DNA of 64,000 nt from positions 2,985,961-3,049,960 of the forward strand of contig CBDBPM010000002.1 in NCBI GenBank assembly GCA_965208735.1. The letters are read 5' to 3'. Of the stretch, positions 427 to 64,000 are shown one piece after another. This DNA is from Candidatus Poribacteria bacterium. GTDB taxonomy: Bacteria > Poribacteria > WGA-4E > WGA-3G. Position 1 is the first letter of the stretch; each line of letters opens with the position of its first letter. The translations under genes and the position numbers were made by a program. Under the pieces are notes generated by a model. The model saw only the letters and a program-made list of their open reading frames with translations. It made no database searches and was not told where the DNA came from.

Positions 427-597
427 TTTCAGACTCCCCGATTTTGTATGTTAGCAAGGTGACAAAAGTGTGTCAAGAAAAAAGTAGCGTTCTTAGGAAG
501 CGCGATTGCAGGGTCATTCAATTGTCCGTTTTTAGCATTGTCCTTTTCGCAGGCGTTAACACTTAATATATGTTATGCTTTAAAACAAACCACTGAA

Positions 598-627
598 ATT
601 TTCGCAGCATTTCGCAGCATTTCGCAG
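598..627. repeat. Three perfect tandem copies of the 10-bp unit ATTTCGCAGC in the glnD upstream region
   Basis: Read directly from the sequence: atttcgcagc atttcgcagc atttcgcagc. Confidence 0.85.
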
Positions 628-820
628 CGGATCCTGGAAAAAAAGACCTAAAATCCAATAATTTCTTAAAATTGAATCGCCTTGAGCGCGATTGAAACAA
701 CAGTTGTTTTTTTTCCGTATTTGATGTATAATGCGTTTAAATCAAACCTTTAGTCATTTCATCTTTCGGAGGGAGCTACGCGACAATTGGACTGCGCTAA
801 TATATTAGGGGTGAAGGAAA

Positions 821-3538
821 ATGGATAACACACAGATCGGAAAACGACTCAATACATACGTGCCTGACTTAGATGTACCTTTTGAAGAGTTGCAAAAACA
901 ACTTGCTGCTTTCATCCAATCCGAGCGCGAGCAGCTAAAAGCCCGTATCTTAGAGGGCGAAAGTGGTTTTAGTGCTTGTGGCATACATACACAGATGTGG
1001 GATGTCGTGATTCAGAAAGTTTATGAGGTCGCTGCCTTCCAGATTCAGGACGAATACCAGAAGCAGATTGACGTGCTGAAGGAACTTCCAGACATTAACA
1101 CCGCCGACTTAGAAGCGGAATTTGAAGGATGGAAGCCGGATGTCGCACTCTATGGGGTTGGCAGTTACGGCAGAAATGAACTCTGCTATTTTTCGGATGT
1201 GGACGTTGTCTATACCTCCTCTGTGGATTTAGAGGATATTTACGATGAGAGCACGCTTGAACTGATCCGATGGTTCTATGATTTTTTTGACAGCCTCCAC
1301 TCCGTGATTCCGGGGTTTGAGTTCAGCTTTATCTATCGGCCGCTGGCGGATATAGCACAGTGGAATTACCAAGATATGACCGCACTGATTGATATGCGAT
1401 TTATTGCAGGTGACGCAACGCTGACGGAACGTTTCCGAAAAGCCGTACACTCTGAAAAATCGGATATCTCGCTTGTGTTGGATCTACTGAAATCCAAAGC
1501 AGATGCTTTCAAGGCTTCTGAGGATACCATCTATCTCAACCAACCGAATGTAAAAACAGGCAGAGGTGGACTCCGGACGCTTCAGTATGCACTCTGGATA
1601 TGTGGACTTCCAGATTTTATATCAATACCTGAACTCTACGAACGCTACGACGATGCGCAGCTCATACCGTCCCTTGATTTCATGTTTAAGGTGCGTAACC
1701 TGCTCCATGTGCTTGCCGATGCACCACATGATGATCTTAGCTATCACCCTGAGAAGGCAGATATGCTGCAGGCACAGATCGCTCGCGTCCTTGGATTAAC
1801 AGATGAAACCGACGAAGGGCGTTACGCGTTCATGGCGGAATATTACGCGAAGGCAAAATATCTGCATTTCAAAGCAGAGTTGTTGATCCGGAAGATGTTA
1901 GCAAACGGGATTCCTATCTCGGATGTGCTTGCGGTCAGGACGGACGTGCTCTATTGCATGGATAATAATTTCGGTGAGTTGGATGCAGGCGAACTCTTTA
2001 CACTGTTTACCTATTTCCAACAATACGATTTTGAAATCGATGCATCGCTTTCCACATTCATCTCCCGCTACGTTCACGCCTTTGATTGGCGTTCTTTCCA
2101 GAAACGCATGGCAGAGTTGATGAATATACCCGGTGATGTTGCGAAGACGCTCACACGGTTGCATAGACTCAATATCCTATCGCATCTCGGAGACGGAGGT
2201 GCACTTTTTGAAAAGGCGATGATGACACGGAGCGAACGGAGCCTTGATCCGTATACGGTTGGAAAACATACGCTCGTTGCGATTGGTCACCTTGATGAAA
2301 TCCGTCAAACAGAGTCGAGTAGTCCGTTTGGCGGGGCAGGTGGTTTTGGTGCGCCGGTGTCGCCGTCCCCGACTTCCGAATTGGAGGAACTCAACACCGC
2401 ATTTCGCGCGCTTTCGGATCCAGGTACACTCTATATGGCACTCTTCCTTCACGATATAGATAAGCCAGATCCGACCCATCCGATGACCGGTGCCGAAAAA
2501 GCGGAACGCATCGCACCCGAATTTGGGTTTAATTCACAACAGACAGATGATATCTGCTTTCTGATTCGGGAACACCTATCAATGATAGATTTGGCACGTT
2601 ATCACCATTGGGATGAAAGCACGATCGCCGAATTCTGTAAGAAGGTTAACTCGTTAGAGCGTTTAACTGCACTGTATCTGCTCACCTATTGCGACTCCAA
2701 AGCCAACGGTTCACAGAACTTCAGCCACGTCGTTAAGCATAACCTGAAGAGTTTGTACGAGGTGGCGCGCACCCGTTTCGTCGGTCAAGAGGAGACGCAG
2801 TGGGGTGCCTTTGCCCCCGTTGAAGAATTTCAGCAATTCCTTCACCACATGCCGGTCTCCTACCGTATTAGCGTTTCGCCTGAGGAGATCGCCATGCATA
2901 TAAAGATGACGACACAAGCAGAAGCAGCATCTACGGAAACAGATGCGACACCGAGTGCAGGGATCGTCCAATTTGTTGACCGTCCCGGATTTACCGAACT
3001 CCATCTCTGCAGTCCGAGCCGACTCGGAAAGTTGCACAGGGTGAGCGGTCTCTTTTACGCGAACGGCATAGATGTCCGGGATGCGCGCGTCTATACGAAA
3101 CAGGATACGAATATTGAGCTTGAAATCTATCGACTTGTCCATCAACCGCCCCATCACCGCGGAGAACCGATGCCACTTGACGAGGATCTCAAACGGGACC
3201 TCGATTTTGACATCCGTGGACTCTTAGCGGAGGAGGTTACACTCAACCAGATTTTTGAGAGGCACTATGTGAATCTGAATGAGACGTGGCAGGTTGATGA
3301 TGTCACTGTTGAGGCGGCACGAAGTTACTCAGAGATTGTCGTTGTCGGCGAAGAAAAAATGGGGTTTCTCCACTATTTCAGCGGTATCTTGGCGAAACTC
3401 GGATTGAACGTCGAAATGTGTAAGTGTTCGGGATTAGGTGGACAGGCGATTGATAGGTTCTATGTCCAACCGGTGGCTGATCCGAAAGCGGTACACGCTG
3501 ATATTATGGCGGCGTTGGATGCTGAAAATGGGCAATAG
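821..3538 (+). CDS. glnD: [Protein-PII] uridylyltransferase / uridylyl-removing enzyme (GlnD-like): NTase, HD and C-terminal ACT-like regions
   Basis: 905 aa. Nucleotidyltransferase motif GVGSYGRNELCYFSDVDVVY, HD motif LFLHDIDKPD, and a C-terminal region of about 180 aa consistent with two ACT domains. Length matches GlnD. Confidence 0.7.
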   Translation: MDNTQIGKRLNTYVPDLDVPFEELQKQLAAFIQSEREQLKARILEGESGFSACGIHTQMWDVVIQKVYEVAAFQIQDEYQKQIDVLKELPDINTADLEAEFEGWKPDVALYGVGSYGRNELCYFSDVDVVYTSSVDLEDIYDESTLELIRWFYDFFDSLHSVIPGFEFSFIYRPLADIAQWNYQDMTALIDMRFIAGDATLTERFRKAVHSEKSDISLVLDLLKSKADAFKASEDTIYLNQPNVKTGRGGLRTLQYALWICGLPDFISIPELYERYDDAQLIPSLDFMFKVRNLLHVLADAPHDDLSYHPEKADMLQAQIARVLGLTDETDEGRYAFMAEYYAKAKYLHFKAELLIRKMLANGIPISDVLAVRTDVLYCMDNNFGELDAGELFTLFTYFQQYDFEIDASLSTFISRYVHAFDWRSFQKRMAELMNIPGDVAKTLTRLHRLNILSHLGDGGALFEKAMMTRSERSLDPYTVGKHTLVAIGHLDEIRQTESSSPFGGAGGFGAPVSPSPTSELEELNTAFRALSDPGTLYMALFLHDIDKPDPTHPMTGAEKAERIAPEFGFNSQQTDDICFLIREHLSMIDLARYHHWDESTIAEFCKKVNSLERLTALYLLTYCDSKANGSQNFSHVVKHNLKSLYEVARTRFVGQEETQWGAFAPVEEFQQFLHHMPVSYRISVSPEEIAMHIKMTTQAEAASTETDATPSAGIVQFVDRPGFTELHLCSPSRLGKLHRVSGLFYANGIDVRDARVYTKQDTNIELEIYRLVHQPPHHRGEPMPLDEDLKRDLDFDIRGLLAEEVTLNQIFERHYVNLNETWQVDDVTVEAARSYSEIVVVGEEKMGFLHYFSGILAKLGLNVEMCKCSGLGGQAIDRFYVQPVADPKAVHADIMAALDAENGQ

Positions 3539-3546
3539 TCCTATGA

Positions 3547-3668
3547 TAGGACTTACGCAATTTTGACTGCAGCCCGTTCTGTTAGATGAGAATTTTCGGA
3601 AAACACAGCGTTCTGGTAGCACAAACTGGGAAGTTTGTGCTACAAAAGAGCAGCATGCGTAAGCCCTA
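3547..3668. mobile_element. MITE-like 122-bp element bounded by inverted copies of the IS terminal repeat TAGGACTTACGCAA
   Basis: 3547-3560 taggacttacgcaa matches the IRL of the IS at 59762. 3655-3668 atgcgtaagcccta matches the inverted IR at 62651 in 13 of 14 positions. The interior holds a perfect 12-bp-stem hairpin at 3616-3643. Confidence 0.5.
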
Positions 3669-3685
3669 TATGTCTACTTCATCTG

Positions 3686-3712
3686 GTAGGCGCGGTTTGG
3701 AACCGCGCCTAC
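3686..3712. repeat. GGTAG-hairpin family member (gtaggcgcggtt-tgg-aaccgcgcctac), 12-bp stem
   Basis: Perfect palindrome read in sequence. Related copies at 18058, 35836, 51216, 51398, 51442, 58121, 58182 and 62490. Confidence 0.7.
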
Positions 3713-3778: not shown

Positions 3779-4528
3779 ATGAAACAACGCGTACTCATTA
3801 CAGGTGCGGCTGGCACGGTCGGCACCGCGCTCTGGAAGGCGTGGGAAGAACAGGATACTTACACATTAACGTTGATGGATATCAATCCGATTGTGGACGC
3901 GAATTCGCGCGTGGTGATTGCTGATATTCGCGACTCTGCCGCGATGCAGACGTTGTGCCGCGAGCAAGATGTGTTGGTACATCTGGCATACATCCGCCAA
4001 GATTCGCTTGGGAAGGTGCCCGGCGAAGTCAGCGATATCGGTGCATCTATGAATCTGTTTGAAGCAGCACGAGAAGGTGGCGTTAAAAAGATTGTATACG
4101 CCAGCACGAATCACGTCTCGGGTTGGAATGAGCGATTGAACTCGCCACCCCGATTCTCGACAGGTGACCAGTTTCGTCCAGACGGTTGGTACGGTGCAAT
4201 GAAAGGCATGGCAGAGATTGCTGGACGGTATCTCGTGGATGCCCACGATATGCGGTTCATCAGTATCCGTATCGGGAGTTTCAACGGGACGGACGAACCG
4301 AGTGGGATTCGCCACTGTAGCATACTCCTAACCCCGCGAGATTGCGTCCAACTCTTCGGCTTGGCTGTTGATTACGATGGACCCGTTAAATATCTGATTA
4401 CGTACGGACGTTCTGCAAACTCTGACGGGTATCAGCAGAGCTATCTTGATATAAGCGGTGCTGTTGAGGTGTTAGGGTATCAACCGCAGGACAATTTGGT
4501 TAAAACGCATCTCCACCTTTTTTTATAA
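3779..4528 (+). CDS. NAD-dependent epimerase/dehydratase family protein (SDR Rossmann fold)
   Basis: N-terminal MKQRVLITGAAGTVGTAL glycine-rich NAD-binding motif, plus a conserved YxxxK-like region (WYGAMKG). 249 aa. Confidence 0.65.
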   Translation: MKQRVLITGAAGTVGTALWKAWEEQDTYTLTLMDINPIVDANSRVVIADIRDSAAMQTLCREQDVLVHLAYIRQDSLGKVPGEVSDIGASMNLFEAAREGGVKKIVYASTNHVSGWNERLNSPPRFSTGDQFRPDGWYGAMKGMAEIAGRYLVDAHDMRFISIRIGSFNGTDEPSGIRHCSILLTPRDCVQLFGLAVDYDGPVKYLITYGRSANSDGYQQSYLDISGAVEVLGYQPQDNLVKTHLHLFL

Positions 4529-35835: not shown

Positions 35836-35871
35836 CCAGGCCCGGTAGGTTCGGTTTCCTAACCGAACCGG
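35836..35871. repeat. GGTAG-hairpin family member (ccaggcccggtagg ttcggtttcctaaccgaacc gg)
   Basis: Palindrome read in sequence. Near-identical copies, with compensatory stem changes, at 51398, 51442 and 62490. Confidence 0.7.
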
Positions 35872-51397: not shown

Positions 51398-51469
51398 CCG
51401 GTTCGGTTAGGAAACCGAACCTACCGAGTCTGGGGTAGCATCCGGTTCGGTTAGGAAATCGAACCTACC
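51398..51469. repeat. Two tandem GGTAG-hairpin family copies in inverted orientation (ccggttcggttaggaaaccgaacctacc and ccggttcggttaggaaatcgaacctaccc)
   Basis: Read in sequence; they are reverse complements of the copy at 35836. Confidence 0.7.
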
Positions 51470-58276: not shown

Positions 58277-58669
58277 TTACAAAATCCATGACTGTATATG
58301 GTCAGCAATCACTTCAATATCCGTTATGGTTCCATCCGCAATCTTAAGACCGAGTTCGATAATGGAATCGTTAATGTTGAGAGATAGGGTGCAACTGTTA
58401 AATTCTAAAAACAAAATGGCACAATGTAGACCAACACGCTTATTCCCGTCGAAAAATATATGCCCTGTGATAATGTGATGCGCATATACAGCGGCTTTTT
58501 GAGGCAAAGTTGGATACAGTTCAGTGTCACCGAATTTTCCACTAACTGCCTCAACCAGATAGCGTAATTGATTTTCATTCAACAATTGATAGTCACCGAC
58601 ATGTCCCTCAGCAACCTCCAGTATTTCCGCAATTGTCAAATATCTGAGATGTTGCCGAGAGTTTTCCAT
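58277..58669 (-). CDS. Doc-family (Fic-fold) toxin
   Basis: 130 aa with the Doc motif HIFFDGNKRVG (H-x-F-x-D-G-N-K-R). Confidence 0.7.
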   Translation of the reverse strand: MENSRQHLRYLTIAEILEVAEGHVGDYQLLNENQLRYLVEAVSGKFGDTELYPTLPQKAAVYAHHIITGHIFFDGNKRVGLHCAILFLEFNSCTLSLNINDSIIELGLKIADGTITDIEVIADHIQSWIL

Positions 58670-58941
58670 GCGCGATCGTAATTTCGTAATATTTCCTTTG
58701 AGGCTGTGGTACTGTTTATCCCGATACTGCTGGCAGCTGCCATGTCAGACTTTGCTTTTTCCGTTCCTCCGAGGCGTAACCAAGCCTTGCTGCGTCTGTA
58801 ATAGGCATCAGCATAATCGGGTTTGAGTTCTATCGCTTTGGTGTAGTTTTTAATAGCAAGCTCAACCTCACCTTTTTTGCTGTGAGCCAATCCGCGATTG
58901 TAATAGGTTTTGGCACACTTTTGATTCAGTTCTTTTGTCAT
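58636..58941 (-). CDS. Small TPR-repeat protein overlapping the Doc gene start by 34 bp
   Basis: Two TPR units (YYNRGLAHSKKGEVELAIKNYTKAIELKPDYADAYYRRSKAW) plus a C-terminal tail of about 35 aa. Confidence 0.45.
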   Translation of the reverse strand: MTKELNQKCAKTYYNRGLAHSKKGEVELAIKNYTKAIELKPDYADAYYRRSKAWLRLGGTEKAKSDMAAASSIGINSTTASKEILRNYDRAWKTLGNISDI

Positions 58942-59043
58942 ATTTTCTTTTTCCTTATACAGATAACTTGAAAAATTTGATTCTGGGCTTTTCTGACTCG
59001 CTGATTTGCAGAATAAGAGTGCTTTAGCAAGTTAATTTCCGAT

Positions 59044-59499
59044 TTAAGCTCCCCATGTTACAGTTAATTTTTCCACCGGTTCCACTACACGAAACTGGTT
59101 TGGAAAATCTTTCATTATATCAGTGATCTTATCATCCAGAATAGTGTCGTAGACAGTGGTTTCATAAGTAGTACTTTTTAGTAGAACATCTTTCTCATCA
59201 GATTCTTGTATGCCAATTTTCAGAGGAGCGTCACTAGTTACAGGTCTTTCTGTAGAATCGTGTAGACCAGAACGTTCGCTCTCAGCATATCGTTTTAACC
59301 GGTTCACATACATAAATATGTTACTAGCTAAATAATACTGCACCTCAATATTCATCCGATCAATTTCGGCAAGAAACCCACCCGCGGATAATTCATAATT
59401 CCGCGGGTTGGTTTCTACCTCTTGGAGTTTTTCAACCTGTTTTTGAAAACGTCCAATGCGCTCCAATGTTGCTTCAAGTTCTTGATTGTTCTGAATCAT
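59044..59499 (-). CDS. Hypothetical protein, probable partner of the disrupted nucleotidyltransferase (toxin or antitoxin-like second gene)
   Basis: 151-aa ORF overlapping the NTase fragment 3' end by 26 bp, as in NTase/HEPN-type pairs. I cannot identify a firm HEPN Rx4-6H motif by eye. Confidence 0.35.
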   Translation of the reverse strand: MIQNNQELEATLERIGRFQKQVEKLQEVETNPRNYELSAGGFLAEIDRMNIEVQYYLASNIFMYVNRLKRYAESERSGLHDSTERPVTSDAPLKIGIQESDEKDVLLKSTTYETTVYDTILDDKITDIMKDFPNQFRVVEPVEKLTVTWGA

Positions 59500-59761
59500 T
59501 GTGAATCACCTCAACTATACCGCGTTGAGTCTTGTCGCGTTTAGTTTGCCAGAATTCTTCTATTCCTTGATCATCGTTGAGCAGAGCCGACTCAGGAATC
59601 CAGAAAATACTTGCTCCTAAAACATTTTGTGCCTTTTGATGGTTAAAGATGAAAGCCGCTTCACCATGTACTTGACCGACATCAAATGAATCTTGCATCA
59701 GGAGGAATATATCCACATCACCCGGAATAGGTTTGGCTGTTATAAACGAACCATATATAAT
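59474..59761 (-). pseudogene. C-terminal fragment of a nucleotidyltransferase (MNT-type) gene separated from its 5' part by the IS/composite insertion
   Basis: Minus-strand frame immediately after the IS left inverted repeat reads (L)IIYGSFITAKPIPGDVDIFLLM..., the GS-x9-13-DxD NTase motif, with no upstream start. Confidence 0.6.
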
Positions 59762-60851
59762 TAGGACTTACGCAAAGTTGACGACAATAGAAGGCTTTTT
59801 GATCTCTCGTCGCAGATAGTCCTCGTATAAACTTTCTTTCAGGCGGTAAATCGTTTGACCCGTCGTGCGCGCAGCACGCGTCAAACTGACCCAGACCCAC
59901 AAACAACAGGCAATATGATTGCGTTGTCCACGATGTTGACGACTTTGGCACTTGCTGATACCTGTCGTTTGCTTGAGCTCACGATGAAGTTGCTCAATCT
60001 TCCAACGAACGCGACATTCTTGCTGCGTCGCAGTCACATCCGATTGAGATAAATCGTTGGTGGCAATATATTCCGTGCGTCTGGTGCCGGACGCTATCCG
60101 AAACAACTTCACTTGGTGGCCTTTCGGAAACTTGTAGATATGAACACGTTTACCCTGTCGCAACTCTGATTCTGTCCACGTCAGATCATCTATCCGTTTG
60201 TGCGGGTCAACACCCTCAGTGTCATTGACGAGACGATTGCGTTTCAAGGGAGCATAATAGATTTTTGAGAGACTCTGAATCGTTTTTAGCACTGCCATTG
60301 AAGCATACCAAGAATCTACTAACACGACCCGAAACGGGAGATTTTTCACGAAGTAGGCGTTCTGCAACATCTCCTGAAGGTGTTGAAGTTTGGTTTTCGC
60401 GTCTCGGTCTGGATCATAGATACGGTAATCAATAATCCAATACTGATGCGTCTTCGGATTGACATAGACACATGTCACGAGACCGATGCCTTGGATGACA
60501 CGTTTTTCGGAGCCACTCCACTGCCGGCGAACAGGTTCTATCTGTTTCGCATAAGGTTTTGGCATGACGGTATCATCAAAAAGAACGTATCCGTCTTCAT
60601 CAAACTCAATATCGTTTCGCACCGAACGCCAGAGTTCACGGGCAGGGATACGTTCGGTATTCAGGAGACGATTGAGTTGATCATGGCTCCATTTCTCCGT
60701 ATGATTGGCAAAGTGTGTCTGTGTGAAGTTCTGAAAACCGGCTAACAAAAATTGGCAATAATCCGAGAACAGCGGTTGTCTCTTTTCAGAAAGATTCATG
60801 CTCATCATAATTAAAAACTATAACACATTTTAATTCATTGCGTAAGTCCTA
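59762..60851 (-). mobile_element. IS4-superfamily (IS701-like) insertion sequence, 1090 bp, terminal IRs TAGGACTTACGCAA
   Basis: IRL 59762-59775 taggacttacgcaa. IRR 60838-60851 ttgcgtaagtccta. Encloses a 346-aa DDE transposase. Confidence 0.7.
59768..60808 (-). CDS. DDE transposase (IS4/IS701-like)
   Basis: DDE residues in ...YWIIDYRIYD..., ...VVLVDSWYAS..., and the downstream Y(2)R(3)E(6)K-like signature R-WKI-E-QLHREL-K. Confidence 0.75.
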   Translation of the reverse strand: MMSMNLSEKRQPLFSDYCQFLLAGFQNFTQTHFANHTEKWSHDQLNRLLNTERIPARELWRSVRNDIEFDEDGYVLFDDTVMPKPYAKQIEPVRRQWSGSEKRVIQGIGLVTCVYVNPKTHQYWIIDYRIYDPDRDAKTKLQHLQEMLQNAYFVKNLPFRVVLVDSWYASMAVLKTIQSLSKIYYAPLKRNRLVNDTEGVDPHKRIDDLTWTESELRQGKRVHIYKFPKGHQVKLFRIASGTRRTEYIATNDLSQSDVTATQQECRVRWKIEQLHRELKQTTGISKCQSRQHRGQRNHIACCLWVWVSLTRAARTTGQTIYRLKESLYEDYLRREIKKPSIVVNFA

Positions 60852-61151
60852 CCAAATAAACTCGTCTCATGACATGTTAACCTCCAAATGCTTGAATTTT
60901 GGAAAAATTTTAGCAGCATTCGTGAATTAGGTCAACTGCTTTTCGCTGGTGCCGCAGGACTATTTAGTTTTAGATAAATTACCGGATTTTCTAAATTTTT
61001 GAATTTTCTTTTTCAAGTCCGGTGTCCCTTCCCAGTAACGGGTGGGAGCCCTGGTTGCAAACCGTGAAGAAACACCCAAGCAAAAACCCTACCGGGCATG
61101 GGGGCGAAAATTGGACGAAAAAACCGAGAACTAAATAGCCCTGCTGTTTGG

Positions 61152-62336
61152 TTAGACCCGGTGGAGCTTTAGTAATTCCCAATTCGGCTCAAAACCGATG
61201 CCGGGACGAGACGGAACGGTAACATACCCATCGGGTTCTAAAACCATTGGTGGGAGGAACATTTCACCACGTAGCGGGTCCACAGCCGGTGGATAATATT
61301 CTAACATCAGACCGTTATTTCGACTTGCAGCGATATGGATTTGCAATTCTTGTGCACCGTGTGGCGCAATCAACTTTTCGGCTGCCAATGCTTCTTCAAC
61401 AACCTGCATCGCTGGTTCATAGCCGGGAAGGATCGCAACATCCAGGTTGAATACATCCGCGCCATCATAATCAATGAGTGTTTGGAAATAGTGTAACCCG
61501 TATCCGTTTTCTCCAGTGGCGATTTGTATACCATAATCTTGTGCTATCTCGCGGAACGCTTTATGTCCGCGGTAATCGTGGCTATGAATCGGTTCTTCAA
61601 ACCAGAAGATGTCGTTCGCCTGCAGCGCGGGCAGAAACACACGCGCCTCTTCAATCGACAAGGCACAATTCGCATCTACCATCACGGTAATATCGGAGCC
61701 GACCGTTTCGCGAACCGTCTCAATTCGTTTGATGTCTGTTTCAAGTCCGGCATCGGGGTCTCCAATCTTCATCTTAACCGCGGTGGCGTTGAACGCATTT
61801 ATATTCCGCGACATCTCCTCGCAGAGTTCGTCAAACCCCTTATCTCGACCGTAATAACCACCGGCGATATAGGTCCGGATGCGTTGCTGCGTACCGCCGA
61901 GTAAAGCGTGAACAGACTTCCCTTCTATTTTCCCACGAACATCCCAGCACGCTTGGTTTATTGCCGCGAGTACTTGTGTGTGATACCCACCGGGTCCGTA
62001 GATTTTGTAGTTCTCGGCTAACCGTGAGACGTAAGCGGTATCCGTCACATTGCGTCCGATCAATGCCGGACGGAACAGATCTACAAACTTTGGGAATATG
62101 GAGAGTGGACGGGTCGCAGCGGTGCCGCCGTTGAAACCGTATCCGACGATCTCTTCTGTCCCGCTTTTGGCGGTCACCTTTATGAGGTGCAGCCTGCCTT
62201 TATCATAGACGTGCATGCCGTTCCAGATGGGTGGCTTGTCCCATTCGTAGCGTTGGCTTTCAACGGCTGTGATTTTGAAGGTGGGTGTAGACATTGTTTC
62301 TCTATTCTGGGACTTCCCAAATGGATCTTGATGCAA
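61152..62336 (-). CDS. Enolase-superfamily enzyme (mandelate racemase / muconate lactonizing enzyme family)
   Basis: ...KIGDPDAGLETDIKRIETVRETVGSDITVMVDANCA... and ...FWFEEP... metal-ligand motifs of MR/MLE. Likely true start MSTPTFKITAVES at about 62294. Confidence 0.7.
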   Translation of the reverse strand: MHQDPFGKSQNRETMSTPTFKITAVESQRYEWDKPPIWNGMHVYDKGRLHLIKVTAKSGTEEIVGYGFNGGTAATRPLSIFPKFVDLFRPALIGRNVTDTAYVSRLAENYKIYGPGGYHTQVLAAINQACWDVRGKIEGKSVHALLGGTQQRIRTYIAGGYYGRDKGFDELCEEMSRNINAFNATAVKMKIGDPDAGLETDIKRIETVRETVGSDITVMVDANCALSIEEARVFLPALQANDIFWFEEPIHSHDYRGHKAFREIAQDYGIQIATGENGYGLHYFQTLIDYDGADVFNLDVAILPGYEPAMQVVEEALAAEKLIAPHGAQELQIHIAASRNNGLMLEYYPPAVDPLRGEMFLPPMVLEPDGYVTVPSRPGIGFEPNWELLKLHRV

Positions 62337-62489
62337 AAATTGTCAGATGTAATTCTTTGTCAAAAGCGATGATACGTGCTTGTGAGCGGGTTTGGAACAA
62401 CCGCGCTAATTGCTCATAGGACATCTCTCTTTTGCTACTTCTCTGATGTGTGAAATACCCATTAGCGGTTTTGTAATTCTATATTTTCC

Positions 62490-62525
62490 CCAGGCCAGGT
62501 AGGTGCGGTTTCCTAACCGCACCGG
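62490..62525. repeat. GGTAG-hairpin family member (ccaggccaggtagg tgcggtttcctaaccgcacc gg) with a compensatory stem change relative to 35836
   Basis: ttcgg/ccgaa at 35836 versus tgcgg/ccgca here. Confidence 0.7.
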
Positions 62526-62664
62526 GCATCTCTAAAAAATTACCGAATTTAAAAATTAATCTTCATTTAGTTTGCGGAACTTACAGACACAATCTAACAG
62601 ATTATGCTACAAAGGTGGCAACTTGCGTTATTATAACACGAAAGCGGGAAATGCGTAAGTCCTA

Positions 62665-62846
62665 ATAATAAATCTAGCCACTTTTCTGGTGCTGGTTGCC
62701 AACATGAATATGTATTCCAACCGCTGTCCAACACGTTCTCTTTGGACAGTGCCTGTACCGAAATGTTGCAGCACCTCAGTCAACGTTGCTTGGTGAGTTC
62801 CTATAGGTAAATCTCCATTGTTGTCAAATTCGGGCCATTTCTTCAT
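62665..62846 (-). pseudogene. N-terminal fragment of the same nucleotidyltransferase gene (MKKWPEFDNNGDLPIGTHQATLTEVLQHF...RLEYIFMLATSTRKVARFII)
   Basis: The ORF runs into the solo IR at 62651-62664 and terminates inside it. The N-terminal G-LP-G-H--T--EV---F motif is typical of the N-domain preceding GSFxT...DxD in MNT-like NTases. Confidence 0.55.
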
Positions 62847-62871
62847 GTGGATCTGGATCTCGGTCCTATCG

Positions 62872-64000
62872 CTAAATTAGCATTGAAGCGATGTCTTTTG
62901 GCAACTGAACACCAATTGCCCGCTCAAGGTCTAAAATGCTTATGTTACGAAAGTTAGCAGTGATATCCACTCCACCGTCCCGAGCAATAATCAGGTCAGA
63001 TCTCGCTTTTTCCCATTCTCCTAAGACTAACCACGCAGCCCCGCGATTGTAATAGGCTAAGGCGAACATAGGGTATAGTTGTATCACCTTGTTAAAATCT
63101 TGGATAGCAAGGTTGTGCTCACCTTTGATGCCGAGAGCAACACCGCGGTTATTATATGCCTCGGCGTAATTGGATTTAAGTTCTATTGCATTGTCAAAAT
63201 CTTGGATGGCTCTATCGGAGTCACCGTTTTTATCGTACGCAACACCGCGTCTGTTGTAGACCTCAGCGGAATCGGGTTTTAGTTGTATTGCCTTGTTAAA
63301 GTCTTCAATAGCCAGGTCAAGGTTACTTTTTTCACTATACGCAAAGCCACGGTGATCATAGACTTCAGCGTAATCAGGTTTGAGTTCTATCGCTTTAGTA
63401 AAGTCTTGAATGGCAAGATCAAGGTTTCGTTTTTTGTTATAAGCAACACCCCGATGGTAATAGGATCTAGCATCATCCGGATTCAGTTTTATCGCCATGG
63501 TATAATCTGTAATGGCTTTGTCAACCTCGTCTTTATCTCGGTAAGCATCACCACGATTGCAATAAGCATTAACATAATCGGGTTTAAGTTGTAACGCCTT
63601 ACAAAAATCTTGTATAGCAGACTCTAAATTGCCTGTTTTGATGCAAGTAGTGCCTCGGTTGTTATAAGGTTTGGCATAGTCGGGCCTTAGTTCTATTGCT
63701 TTGTCAAAGTCCGTGATGGCTTTGTCAATCTTGCCTTTTTTACCATATGCAACGCCGCGATTGTTGTAGAAGTCAGCATCAATTTCAGGTTTGAGTTCTA
63801 TTGCTGTAGTATAGTCTTGAATAGCAAGGTCCAGGTCGCCGTTTTTCTCGTAGATAACACCGCGAGTATTATATGCTTCAGCATCATTGGGTATTAATCG
63901 TATCGCCTTAGTAAGATCTTCAATGGCTTTATCAAATTCGTCTTTTTTACTATAAGACAAGCCGCGATAAATATGAGCTTTGACATCACTGGGGTTCAGT
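62872..64000 (-). CDS. TPR-repeat protein (at least 10 TPR units); the N-terminus lies beyond the window end, so it is partial
   Basis: Repeating AxxYxxRGxAYxxxxxxDxAIxDFxKAIELxPD units. The frame stays open upstream of the track start (TTG at 63960) to position 64000. Confidence 0.6.
   Translation of the reverse strand, partial: LNPSDVKAHIYRGLSYSKKDEFDKAIEDLTKAIRLIPNDAEAYNTRGVIYEKNGDLDLAIQDYTTAIELKPEIDADFYNNRGVAYGKKGKIDKAITDFDKAIELRPDYAKPYNNRGTTCIKTGNLESAIQDFCKALQLKPDYVNAYCNRGDAYRDKDEVDKAITDYTMAIKLNPDDARSYYHRGVAYNKKRNLDLAIQDFTKAIELKPDYAEVYDHRGFAYSEKSNLDLAIEDFNKAIQLKPDSAEVYNRRGVAYDKNGDSDRAIQDFDNAIELKSNYAEAYNNRGVALGIKGEHNLAIQDFNKVIQLYPMFALAYYNRGAAWLVLGEWEKARSDLIIARDGGVDITANFRNISILDLERAIGVQLPKDIASMLI

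What the first reader, a model, noticed from the sequence alone, without database searches (positions are those of the whole stretch)
59757..62669. IS4/IS701-like element plus 1.8 kb of passenger DNA inserted as a single 2.9-kb unit into a nucleotidyltransferase gene; 5-bp ATAAT target duplication and in-frame reconstruction
The left inverted repeat taggacttacgcaa at 59762-59775 and a solo inverted copy atgcgtaagtccta at 62651-62664 are each immediately flanked by ATAAT. Deleting 59762-62669, which keeps one ATAAT copy, fuses the minus-strand ORF fragments into one continuous frame: MKKWPEFDNNGDLPIGTHQATLTEVLQHFGTGTVQRERVGQRLEYIFMLATSTRKVARFII-YGSFITAKPIPGDVDIFLLMQDSF...SEQSRT. This is a complete MNT-type nucleotidyltransferase, with the G-LP-G-H--T--E N-domain followed by GSFxT-x9-DxD. 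The mobilised unit uses a second right end at 62651 rather than the proximal IRR of the IS at 60838. It therefore carries an enolase-superfamily gene (61152-62336) and repeat-rich DNA as passenger. This amounts to one-ended or alternative-end transposition, or a composite whose second IS copy has decayed. It is a clean, datable example of IS-mediated gene capture.
Basis: seen in the sequence. Interest (0 to 1): 0.75.

Follow-up and report, generated by a model that had tools for sequence, protein, structure and literature searches.

The report
IS plus solo end moved a gene
In an uncultured sponge-type bacterium (Candidatus Poribacteria), a small jumping gene paired one of its ends with a stray look-alike end 1.8 kb away and carried a sugar-acid-dehydratase-type gene with it into another gene; this is a clean but ordinary example of a known way that genes get relocated.

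Summary
Bases 59762-62664 (2,903 bp) form one inserted unit flanked by a direct ATAAT duplication. Removing it plus one ATAAT restores a 154-aa ORF that matches Pfam DUF6932 end to end and aligns without gaps to 154-aa Poribacteria homologues. Two syntenic loci in related Poribacteria assemblies (L013, L014) carry the uninterrupted gene, so they show the empty site.

The unit contains a 1,090-bp IS701-family insertion sequence (59762-60851). Five other copies, 99.6-100% identical, end exactly at these bases, and four of them have their own 5-6-bp duplications; this copy has none. The remaining 1.8 kb is a piece of a conserved chromosomal locus. In ten loci from other assemblies the enolase-superfamily gene sits between an alpha/beta-hydrolase gene and dctMQ-larN. 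The solo end already lies upstream of it in several genomes, without any IS.

The best reading is therefore surrogate-end (pseudo-compound) transposition: the transposase paired a pre-existing, IS-left-end-like solo repeat with the far end of the IS. A second IS copy decaying after insertion is not supported. "MNT-type nucleotidyltransferase" is only weakly supported. This is a new member of a known kind, of modest interest. One oddity is unexplained: the 99-bp solo-end module is far more conserved than the neighbouring gene.

The parts
59757..59761 (.). Target-site duplication, copy 1 (ATAAT)
   Evidence: Read directly. It is identical to 62665-62669. Keeping one copy restores the DUF6932 ORF.
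59762..60851 (-). IS701-family insertion sequence, 1,090 bp, with perfect 14-bp terminal inverted repeats (59762-59775 and 60838-60851)
   Evidence: Five other copies (L001-L005) are 99.6-100% identical. Homology stops at 60851 in four of the five; L005 runs about 11 nt further over AT-rich flank. At the other end it stops at 59762, within a few AT-rich bases. This copy has no duplication of its own: its flanks are TTTGG and ATTAT in transposase orientation.
59768..60808 (-). Transposase gene, 346 aa
   Evidence: NCBIfam NF049921 transpos_IS701_2, 373 bits (cutoff 250), profile positions 4-317 of 318. Also Pfam DDE_Tnp_1 and DDE_5. An identical protein is found on 14 contigs.
60852..61151 (-). 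Passenger, downstream flank of the enolase-type gene. It holds a ~190-bp repeat bounded by inverted repeats (60954-61144) and a promoter-like site TTGACC-17-TAAAAT (60935-60907) that now reads into the IS.
   Evidence: Inverted repeat I11; promoter scan. Bases 60892-60944 resemble the region further downstream of the enolase gene at the native locus in L007 and L008.
61152..62294 (-). Passenger gene: enolase-superfamily (mandelate racemase / muconate lactonizing enzyme type, acid-sugar-dehydratase-like) protein, 380 aa, intact
   Evidence: Pfam MR_MLE_C (E 5e-44) and MR_MLE_N. Orthologues of 378-383 aa are 75-96% identical over the full length in Poribacteria. The NCBIfam dehydratase hits are all below their cutoffs, so the substrate is unknown.
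62351..62474 (-). Remnant of an AlbA_2/Schlafen-like gene that precedes the enolase gene at the native locus
   Evidence: 81-82% DNA identity to the interior of the 405-aa AlbA_2 genes of L007 and L008. Bases 62295-62364 match the 3' end of that gene.
62487..62525 (.). REP-like palindromic repeat typical of this genome
   Evidence: Similar copies lie at 35836-35871, 51398-51469 and 13349-13364 in the window, and in L002.
62566..62664 (-). Solo left-end module: a 13-bp IR (TAGGACTTACGCA) plus an extended -10-like TGTTATAAT in register with the IS's own left end, plus a ~60-nt conserved stretch. It serves as the outer end of the unit.
   Evidence: 97 of 99 bases identical to L008; 64 of 64 identical to L011; a degenerate copy in L007. 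In all of these it lies upstream of AlbA_2/enolase at the native locus.
62665..62669 (.). Target-site duplication, copy 2 (ATAAT)
   Evidence: Read directly.
62670..62846 (-). N-terminal fragment of the disrupted DUF6932 gene
   Evidence: Reconstruction and Pfam match. Collinear with L014 1847-3179.
59474..59756 (-). C-terminal fragment of the disrupted DUF6932 gene. It overlaps the start of a 151-aa downstream ORF (59044-59499) by 26 nt.
   Evidence: Reconstruction. L014 has the same 154-aa plus 151-aa overlapping gene pair, uninterrupted.

Best explanation
This is a single transposition event of a pseudo-compound unit.

**Proposed sequence of events**
1. At the normal chromosomal locus of the enolase-superfamily gene, a solo IS-left-end-like repeat (IRL') already lay about 350 bp upstream of the gene.
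2. A copy of the 1,090-bp IS701-family element inserted about 300 bp downstream of the gene.
3. The IS's DDE transposase then paired IRL' with the far (right) end of the IS, instead of using the IS's own left end.
4. It moved the 2,903-bp segment (IRL' - AlbA_2 remnant - enolase gene - repeats - IS) into an AT-rich pentamer inside a DUF6932 gene, duplicating ATAAT.

**Consequences**
- The DUF6932 gene is split. It is the first gene of a two-gene pair with overlapping reading frames.
- An intact metabolic gene has been relocated or copied.

**What is shown and what is inferred**
- Shown: the structure of the unit, the duplication, the empty site in relatives, the chromosomal origin of the passenger, and the pre-existence of the solo end.
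- Inferred: catalysis by this transposase, whether the move was cut-and-paste or copy, and the exact donor arrangement.
For: 1. **Exact boundaries.** IR tips abut identical ATAAT pentamers. Excising the unit plus one pentamer restores a 154-aa ORF that matches DUF6932 end to end and aligns without gaps to its family.
2. **Empty site.** L014 (a 2.7-Mb Poribacteria contig) is collinear with window 64000-62668 and then directly with 59757-58650, at about 80% identity. It carries an uninterrupted 154-aa gene, the same 151-aa partner ORF and the same neighbours. L013 shows the same. Neither holds a repeat of this type.
3. **The IS alone did not insert here.** Five other copies define its ends as 59762 and 60851. 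Four of them have their own duplications: CTTCTT, ATTAT, ACATAT and TCTAA. The window copy's flanks, TTTGG and ATTAT, do not match each other, whereas the outer pair does.
4. **The passenger is chromosomal.** In ten loci from nine assemblies the orthologue (82-95% DNA identity where aligned) sits in one conserved neighbourhood: PhyH, metallophosphatase, HD, alpha/beta-hydrolase, [AlbA_2], enolase, 176-aa and 82-aa genes, dctMQ, larN. None of these neighbours is in the window.
5. **The solo end predates the event.** The same end and inner sequence lie upstream of AlbA_2/enolase in L008 (97 of 99), L011/L012 (64 of 64) and L007 (degenerate), with no IS beside them. The window also keeps AlbA_2 remnants between the end and the gene.
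6. **The solo end is of left-end type.** Its first 13 bases are identical to the IS's left end, and the block GTGTTATA lies at the same offset.
7. **Solo ends and MITEs are common.** Elements with these repeats occur near IS copies in these genomes, including a 122-bp MITE at 3547-3668 in the window.
Against: - No donor locus with the arrangement IRL' - enolase - IS was found. The window's own genome is absent from the collections searched, so the intermediate is inferred.
- Transposase activity and end choice are untested.
- The duplication length of this IS varies (5 or 6 bp), and one copy (L001) has none.
- Read-level support for the two junctions could not be checked.
Confidence: 0.85

Rival explanations
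1. True compound transposon that later decayed. Two full IS copies flanked the passenger when it inserted, and the copy at 62651 was afterwards deleted down to its terminal repeat.
For: The solo end is homologous to an IS left end: the 13-bp IR plus the GTGTTATA block in register. It therefore ultimately derives from some IS of this kind.
Against: - The sequence inside the solo end is not IS sequence. It is the same ~100 bp that follows this end at the native enolase locus in L008 and L011/L012, where no IS is present.
- An inward deletion from a second IS copy would not recreate that native junction.
- The solo end points the same way as the IS's own left end. A second copy would therefore have been a direct repeat, with its transposase gene where the AlbA_2 remnant now lies.
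Confidence: 0.05
2. Stepwise assembly in place. A non-autonomous cassette (IRL' - enolase - right end) or the IS alone first inserted at ATAAT. The other component was then added by a second insertion, deletion or homologous recombination.
For: - At the native locus of L008, L010 and L011/L012 the enolase gene is bracketed by a left-type end and a right-type end. In L008 both are perfect and 2,625 bp apart, so a cassette that could be mobilised in trans is conceivable.
- This IS does land at or next to related ends (L003, and the tandem ends in L008).
Against: - A later IS insertion would carry its own 5-6-bp duplication, and it does not.
- Replacing a cassette's right end while keeping the original ATAAT exactly abutting an IR tip needs a base-precise deletion.
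- Recombination between two IS copies would join the passenger to its native upstream flank, not to IRL' + ATAAT + the NTase N-fragment.
- The window has no right-type end downstream of the enolase gene.
Confidence: 0.07
3. Assembly artefact: a chimeric join across repeated IS or MITE sequence in a metagenome assembly.
For: The IS is multi-copy and identical between loci. Related contigs come from low-coverage assemblies.
Against: - A chimera would not give matching 5-bp duplications at IR tips at both junctions.
- It would not produce a solo end with only 13 shared bases, which is too short to mislead an assembler.
- It would not allow a base-exact restoration of a 154-aa family member.
Confidence: 0.02

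Closest known systems
ISEcp1-type transposition units (an IS plus adjacent DNA mobilised by use of a surrogate end)
   Same: One complete IS, a stretch of adjacent chromosomal DNA with an intact gene, a distant imperfect end used instead of the IS's own proximal end, and a 5-bp direct repeat flanking the whole unit. PMC6061673 describes ISEcp1 units carrying blaCMY-2 that are bounded by IRL and a deduced IRR1 and flanked by 5-bp repeats.
   Different: - ISEcp1 belongs to the IS1380 family, skips its right end, and uses weak sequences that match by chance.
- Here the IS is IS701-family and the skipped end is the left end.
- The surrogate is a bona fide relic or MITE-type end with a perfect 13-bp repeat.
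Compound and pseudo-compound transposons
   Same: Chromosomal DNA bracketed by ends recognised by one transposase moves as a unit and makes one target duplication (general IS biology, from my own knowledge).
   Different: Only one of the two bracketing elements is a complete IS. The other is a solo end of about 35 bp of IS-like sequence.
Mobile insertion cassettes (MICs, e.g. MIC231 of IS231) and MITE-bracketed genes
   Same: IS-type inverted repeats flank passenger genes and no transposase (Chen et al. 1999 and De Palmenaer et al. 2004, as cited in PMC2266710; a qnrS2 cassette with a MITE in PMC5444012). At the native locus of L008 the AlbA_2-enolase pair is bracketed by perfect left and right ends.
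   Different: - The window's unit carries its own transposase gene, so it is not a MIC.
- No target duplication was seen around the IR-bounded unit at the native locus, and its mobility is not shown.
IS701 family (De Palmenaer et al. 2008, PMC2266710)
   Same: The transposase passes the curated NCBIfam IS701 model. The ends carry ACT at positions 5-7 and Y/R at positions 12/13 of the published end consensus ---YACT-Y--YR.
   Different: The published typical size is 1,400-1,550 bp with a 4-bp duplication. This element is 1,090 bp with 5-6-bp AT-rich duplications.

Membership tests
IS701 family insertion sequence | DDE transposase belonging to the IS701 clade | tested here: met
   NF049921 transpos_IS701_2, E 1e-111, 373 bits (cutoff 250), full-length match. 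Also Pfam DDE_Tnp_1 and DDE_5.
IS701 family insertion sequence | Short terminal inverted repeats matching the family end consensus ---YACT-Y--YR (PMC2266710) | tested here: inconclusive
   A perfect 14-bp IR is present. TAGGACTTACGCAA fits ACT at positions 5-7, Y at 12 and R at 13, but not Y at positions 4 and 9. The paper notes that the consensus does not represent the whole family.
IS701 family insertion sequence | Target duplication of 4 bp and size of 1,400-1,550 bp (PMC2266710) | tested here: not met
   Duplications are 5 or 6 bp in 4 of 5 other copies and 5 bp for the unit. The element is 1,090 bp. This departs from the classical description, so it is best regarded as a distinct subgroup, consistent with the separate NCBIfam model.
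Surrogate-end / pseudo-compound transposition unit | One target duplication flanks the whole unit, while the IS inside lacks its own | tested here: met
   ATAAT lies at both outer junctions. The IS's own flanks are TTTGG and ATTAT.
Surrogate-end / pseudo-compound transposition unit | An uninterrupted target exists elsewhere (empty site) | tested here: met
   L013 and L014 are syntenic at about 80% DNA identity, with an intact 154-aa gene. These are orthologues in related genomes, not the same strain.
Surrogate-end / pseudo-compound transposition unit | Passenger traceable to a donor locus where the surrogate end pre-exists | tested here: met
   The native locus is conserved in ten loci from other assemblies. 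IRL' lies upstream of the gene in L007, L008 and L011/L012. A donor that also carries the IS was not found.
Surrogate-end / pseudo-compound transposition unit | The transposase can pair the surrogate end with the IS end | not testable with these tools
   Needs a transposition assay.
Minimal nucleotidyltransferase (MNT, Pol-beta superfamily) for the disrupted gene | G[SG]-x(9-13)-D-x-[DE] motif on an NTase fold | tested here: inconclusive
   - The motif GSFITAKPIPGDVDI is present, and G63, S64, D74 and D76 are invariant in 37 homologues.
- A PDB profile search gives one hit, to an NTase-domain protein, at E 0.017 over the motif region.
- In the Foldseek search with the AF2 model (pLDDT 79), ranks 1-22 are nucleotidyltransferases. 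These include MNT antitoxins, but the best has E 5.6e-3 and TM 0.3-0.4.
- Pfam files the protein as DUF6932.
MNT-HEPN toxin-antitoxin pair | An adjacent HEPN partner | tested here: not met
   The overlapping 151-aa downstream ORF has no Pfam, NCBIfam or PADLOC match. The pairing is conserved in L014, but the nature of the partner is unknown.
Mobile insertion cassette (MIC) | IS-type inverted repeats flanking passenger genes without a transposase gene, bounded by a target duplication | tested here: not met
   The window unit contains a transposase gene. The IR-bounded AlbA_2-enolase unit at the native locus (L008) shows no duplication.

The most novel reading that the evidence does not exclude
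The 99-bp solo-end module may be more than a dead IS scar. It consists of the IR, an extended -10-like TGTTATAAT and a ~60-nt stretch.

**What is unusual about it**
- It is single-copy per genome.
- Where present, it lies upstream of the AlbA_2/enolase genes.
- It is 97-100% identical between genomes whose adjacent enolase genes are only 82-89% identical.

**Possible readings**
- A domesticated IS end that serves as promoter and leader for these genes while remaining a usable transposase substrate, which would keep the gene permanently open to mobilisation.
- The edge of a cassette exchanged laterally among Poribacteria.
Probability: 0.15. Interest if true: 0.5.

Novelty: new member of a known kind. 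Interest (0 to 1): 0.3.

Why it matters
**What makes this case useful**
- It is a well-resolved natural example of how an insertion sequence can pick up a neighbouring chromosomal gene by pairing with a stray end.
- It comes from an uncultured, repeat-rich sponge-symbiont lineage where no genetics is possible.
- The inserted unit, the empty target in relatives and the chromosomal origin of the passenger can all be seen from sequence alone.

**What it documents**
- A small, active IS701-type element (1,090 bp, 5-6-bp duplications) with matching MITEs in Poribacteria.
- That the many solo ends in these genomes can act as handles for gene relocation.

It does not reveal a new mechanism.

Tried and rejected
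**Searches that did not find what they were aimed at**
- Exact-protein look-ups for three window products: the enolase gene, the 151-aa partner ORF and the 71-aa N-fragment. None is on record, so the window's own contig and strain-level empty or donor sites could not be retrieved.
- A JGI metagenome scan for a 26-mer beside the junction, and a second for the solo-end module. Both found nothing.
- The scan of GTDB representative genomes for the solo-end module found only two genomes (OZ220722.1 and OX639973.1), neither of which is the source genome.
- An Rfam search of 58900-63000 at E <= 1 found nothing, so the conserved module is not a known RNA family.
- The sigma-70 scan does not call a promoter in the solo end because its -35 is poor. 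Only the extended -10 is visible.

**Ideas rejected**
- That the L003 arrangement (another MR_MLE gene directly upstream of an IS copy) is the donor. It has no DNA similarity to the passenger outside the IS.
- That the enolase gene is native to this site. None of its conserved neighbours is in the window.
Full report
**1. The observation**

- ATAAT at 59757-59761, followed by taggacttacgcaa at 59762-59775.
- The exact reverse complement, ttgcgtaagtccta, at 60838-60851.
- A third copy, atgcgtaagtccta, at 62651-62664, followed by ATAAT at 62665-62669.

The 14-mer with up to two mismatches occurs five times in the 64-kb window, against 0.39 expected. None of 100 shuffles reaches five. The other two copies form a 122-bp MITE at 3547-3668.

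Deleting 59762-62669 (2,908 bp) fuses the two minus-strand fragments into a 154-codon ORF.

**2. The disrupted gene**

- The restored protein matches Pfam DUF6932 in one stretch, over profile positions 1-141 of 142 (E 9e-25).
- It has 442 homologues at E <= 1e-5. The best 120, mostly 150-154 aa, are up to 82% identical, and those with a source name are from Candidatus Poribacteria.
- Alignments of 10 and of 37 sequences each have 154 columns and no gaps. The junction falls on the conserved RFI[VI][FY]GSF.
- So the two fragments belong to one family, and the excision is correct to the base.

The nucleotidyltransferase label is plausible but weak:
- The G-S-x9-D-x-D motif is invariant in the family.
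- A PDB profile search gives one NTase-domain hit at E 0.017.
- An AlphaFold model (pLDDT 79) retrieves nucleotidyltransferases at Foldseek ranks 1-22, including MNT antitoxins. The best has E 5.6e-3 and TM about 0.3-0.4.
- The gene overlaps a 151-aa ORF with no family match by 26 nt. PADLOC gives a weak hit to candidate-system protein PDC-M63A.

**3. The empty site**

The homologue P0124 (77% identical) lies on a 2.7-Mb Poribacteria contig (L014). There it is followed by the same overlapping 151-aa ORF and a TPR gene.

At the DNA level:
- L014 1847-3179 aligns to window 64000-62668.
- L014 3182-4288 aligns to window 59757-58650.
- L014 4587-6465 aligns to window 58079-56254.
- Identities are 79-88%.

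The alignment therefore jumps straight across the 2.9-kb unit. L013 shows the same pattern. Neither locus contains a repeat of this type. The insertion is the derived state.

**4. The insertion sequence**

- The 346-aa ORF (59768-60808, minus strand) is an IS701-family transposase: NF049921, 373 bits against a cutoff of 250, full length.
- The identical protein is encoded on 14 contigs. Five loci from one sample (L001-L005) carry copies that are 99.6-100% identical in DNA.
- Homology stops at window 60851 in four of the five; L005 runs about 11 nt further over AT-rich flank. At the other end it stops at 59762, give or take a few AT-rich bases. The IS proper is therefore 1,090 bp and never includes the passenger.
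- Duplications in the other copies are CTTCTT, ATTAT, ACATAT and TCTAA. L001 has none.
- In the window, the IS's own flanks (TTTGG and ATTAT in transposase orientation) do not match each other. The outer pair, ATTAT and ATTAT, does match.
- Compared with the published family description (1,400-1,550 bp, 4-bp duplication, ends ---YACT-Y--YR; PMC2266710), this element is shorter, makes longer duplications and fits the end consensus only partly.

**5. The passenger**

The gene at 61152-62294 is an intact 380-aa enolase-superfamily protein (MR_MLE_C, E 5e-44). All specific dehydratase models score below their cutoffs, so the substrate is unknown. Orthologues are up to 96% identical, and the start is the ATG at 62294.

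The orthologue was examined in ten loci from nine assemblies (L006, L007, L008, L010, L011, L012, L015, L016, L017 and OX639973.1). In all of them it sits in one conserved neighbourhood:
- Upstream: PhyH, metallophosphatase, PhyH, HD and alpha/beta-hydrolase genes, plus a variable insert that often includes an AlbA_2/Schlafen-like gene.
- Downstream: 176-aa and 82-aa genes, dctM/dctQ, larN and the CTP synthase gene.

None of these neighbours is in the window.

The window does keep relics of the native locus:
- 62295-62364 and 62351-62474 are remnants of the AlbA_2 gene, 81-82% identical to L007 and L008.
- 60892-60944 resembles a promoter-like region further downstream at the native locus.

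The rest of the flanks are REP-like palindromes and a 190-bp repeat bounded by inverted repeats, both typical of this genome. The 1.8 kb is therefore a slice of ordinary chromosome.

**6. The solo end**

In transposase orientation the solo end reads TAGGACTTACGCATTTCCCGCTTTCGTGTTATAATAACGCAAG... The IS's own left end reads TAGGACTTACGCAATGAATTAAAATGTGTTATAGTTTTTAATTATG.
- The first 13 bases are identical.
- The block GTGTTATA sits at the same offset. In the IS it precedes the transposase start codon.
- The solo end is therefore a left-end relic of a related IS, pointing the same way as the IS's own left end.

This end is not peculiar to the window:
- The same end with the same inner sequence lies upstream of AlbA_2/enolase at the native locus in L008 (97 of 99 identical), L011/L012 (64 of 64 identical) and L007 (tip degenerate). 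No IS lies beside it in any of them.
- It is absent in L006, L010, L015 and L016/L017.

The end therefore predates the capture. It is not the remains of a second IS copy that decayed after insertion.

**7. Mechanism**

The most economical account has three steps:
1. An IS copy inserted about 300 bp downstream of the enolase gene at its native locus.
2. The transposase then paired IRL' with the IS's far end.
3. The 2,903-bp unit inserted into ATAAT in the DUF6932 gene.

The rivals were considered in turn:
- **Decay of a second IS copy.** It does not explain why the sequence inside the solo end is the native-locus sequence.
- **Stepwise assembly in place.** It needs a base-precise deletion or a second insertion that left no duplication.
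- **Recombination between IS copies.** It would not give IRL' + ATAAT + the N-fragment at the far junction.
- **Assembly chimera.** It cannot produce matching duplications at IR tips or an exact ORF restoration.

Not shown: the donor intermediate, the chemistry (cut-and-paste or copy), and the activity of the transposase on IRL'.

Timing can only be described qualitatively. The IS is 100% identical to other copies, and both gene fragments are free of stops and frameshifts, so the event is recent.

**8. Comparison with known systems**

- Functionally this is the same kind of event as an ISEcp1 transposition unit: an IS plus adjacent DNA, a surrogate end, and 5-bp repeats around the whole unit (PMC6061673). 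It is equally a pseudo-compound transposon.
- It differs in IS family, in which end is skipped, and in the surrogate being a genuine relic end.
- It is not a mobile insertion cassette, because it carries its own transposase gene.
- The native locus in L008, however, looks cassette-like: perfect left and right ends 2,625 bp apart bracket AlbA_2-enolase. No duplication is visible there (concept from PMC5444012 and references in PMC2266710).

**9. What remains odd**

- The 99-bp solo-end module is 97-100% identical between genomes whose adjacent enolase genes are 82-89% identical (third codon positions 59-77%).
- It is single-copy in the two GTDB representative genomes that carry it.
- It has no Rfam match.
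- Constraint (as a promoter, a leader or a transposase-binding site) or recent lateral exchange could both explain this. I could not decide between them.

**10. Verdict**

The mechanism can be refined to surrogate-end capture using a pre-existing solo end. In kind it is a known phenomenon, so it is a new member of a known kind and of modest interest.

Noticed in passing
window 3547-3668: A 122-bp MITE with the same terminal repeats as the IS (TAGGACTTACGCAA ... ATGCGTAAGCCCTA). It lies between a 905-aa ORF (821-3538) and a 249-aa ORF (3779-4528), neither of which was checked against family libraries. Its flanks are TATGA and TATGT (4 of 5 match). It contains the hairpin GTAGCACAAAC...GTTTGTGCTAC.
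   Followed up: partly
window 62566-62664; L008 4304-4402; L011 7672-7735: The solo-end module is 97-100% identical across genomes whose neighbouring enolase genes are only 82-89% identical. It is single-copy per genome and carries an extended -10-like TGTTATAAT. A partial second copy of its inner part lies at L008 4025-4095.
   Followed up: partly
L008 4304-6928; L011 7672-9216; L010 1718-1744: At the native locus the enolase gene (with AlbA_2 in L008) is bracketed by a left-type end and one or two right-type ends 47-73 bp past the stop codon. This makes an IR-bounded, cassette-like unit with no visible target duplication.
   Followed up: partly
L003 5958-7219: Another copy of the IS, with duplication ATTAT, sits exactly at the degenerate tip of a ~170-bp MITE and directly after a different MR_MLE-family gene. 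L008 has two left-type ends in tandem, 26 bp apart (4278 and 4304). This suggests insertion at or next to related ends.
   Followed up: no
L001 5958-7047: This IS copy has no 5-6-bp duplication (flanks AAAAT and ATTAA). It may be a product of recombination between copies, or another unit that used a distant end.
   Followed up: no
window 62487-62525, 35836-35871, 51398-51469, 13349-13364, 3683-3709: A family of REP-like palindromes (ggtaggtgcggtttcctaaccgcacc) is scattered through intergenic regions and is also present in related Poribacteria contigs.
   Followed up: no
window 60954-61144: A ~190-bp element bounded by 16-bp inverted repeats (GCAGGACTATTTAGTT / AACTAAATAGCCCTGC). It replaces what lies downstream of the enolase gene in other genomes. 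Its inner motif ggtttttgcttgggtgtttct recurs in L002, L007 and L011.
   Followed up: no
window 509-680 vs L006 9151-9339: A 170-190-bp repeat containing tandem 'ttcgcagcat' units is 83% identical between an unrelated place in the window and the region just downstream of the enolase gene in L006.
   Followed up: no
L011/L012 1-7664; L007 4897-7993: The stretch upstream of the enolase gene at the native locus is variable and rich in defence-type genes: a methylase plus ResIII helicase, PIN, TIR, AlbA_2/Schlafen-like and an IS5-type transposase. It behaves like an integration hot spot.
   Followed up: no
window 58277-58669; L013 1809-2780 and 3659-4558: The 130-aa ORF downstream in the window (weak PADLOC PDC-S23 hits) is missing from the syntenic L014. 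In L013 the same neighbourhood carries two copies of a different DDE_Tnp_1 IS, one of which cuts the 151-aa partner ORF. This locus is repeatedly hit by mobile elements.
   Followed up: no
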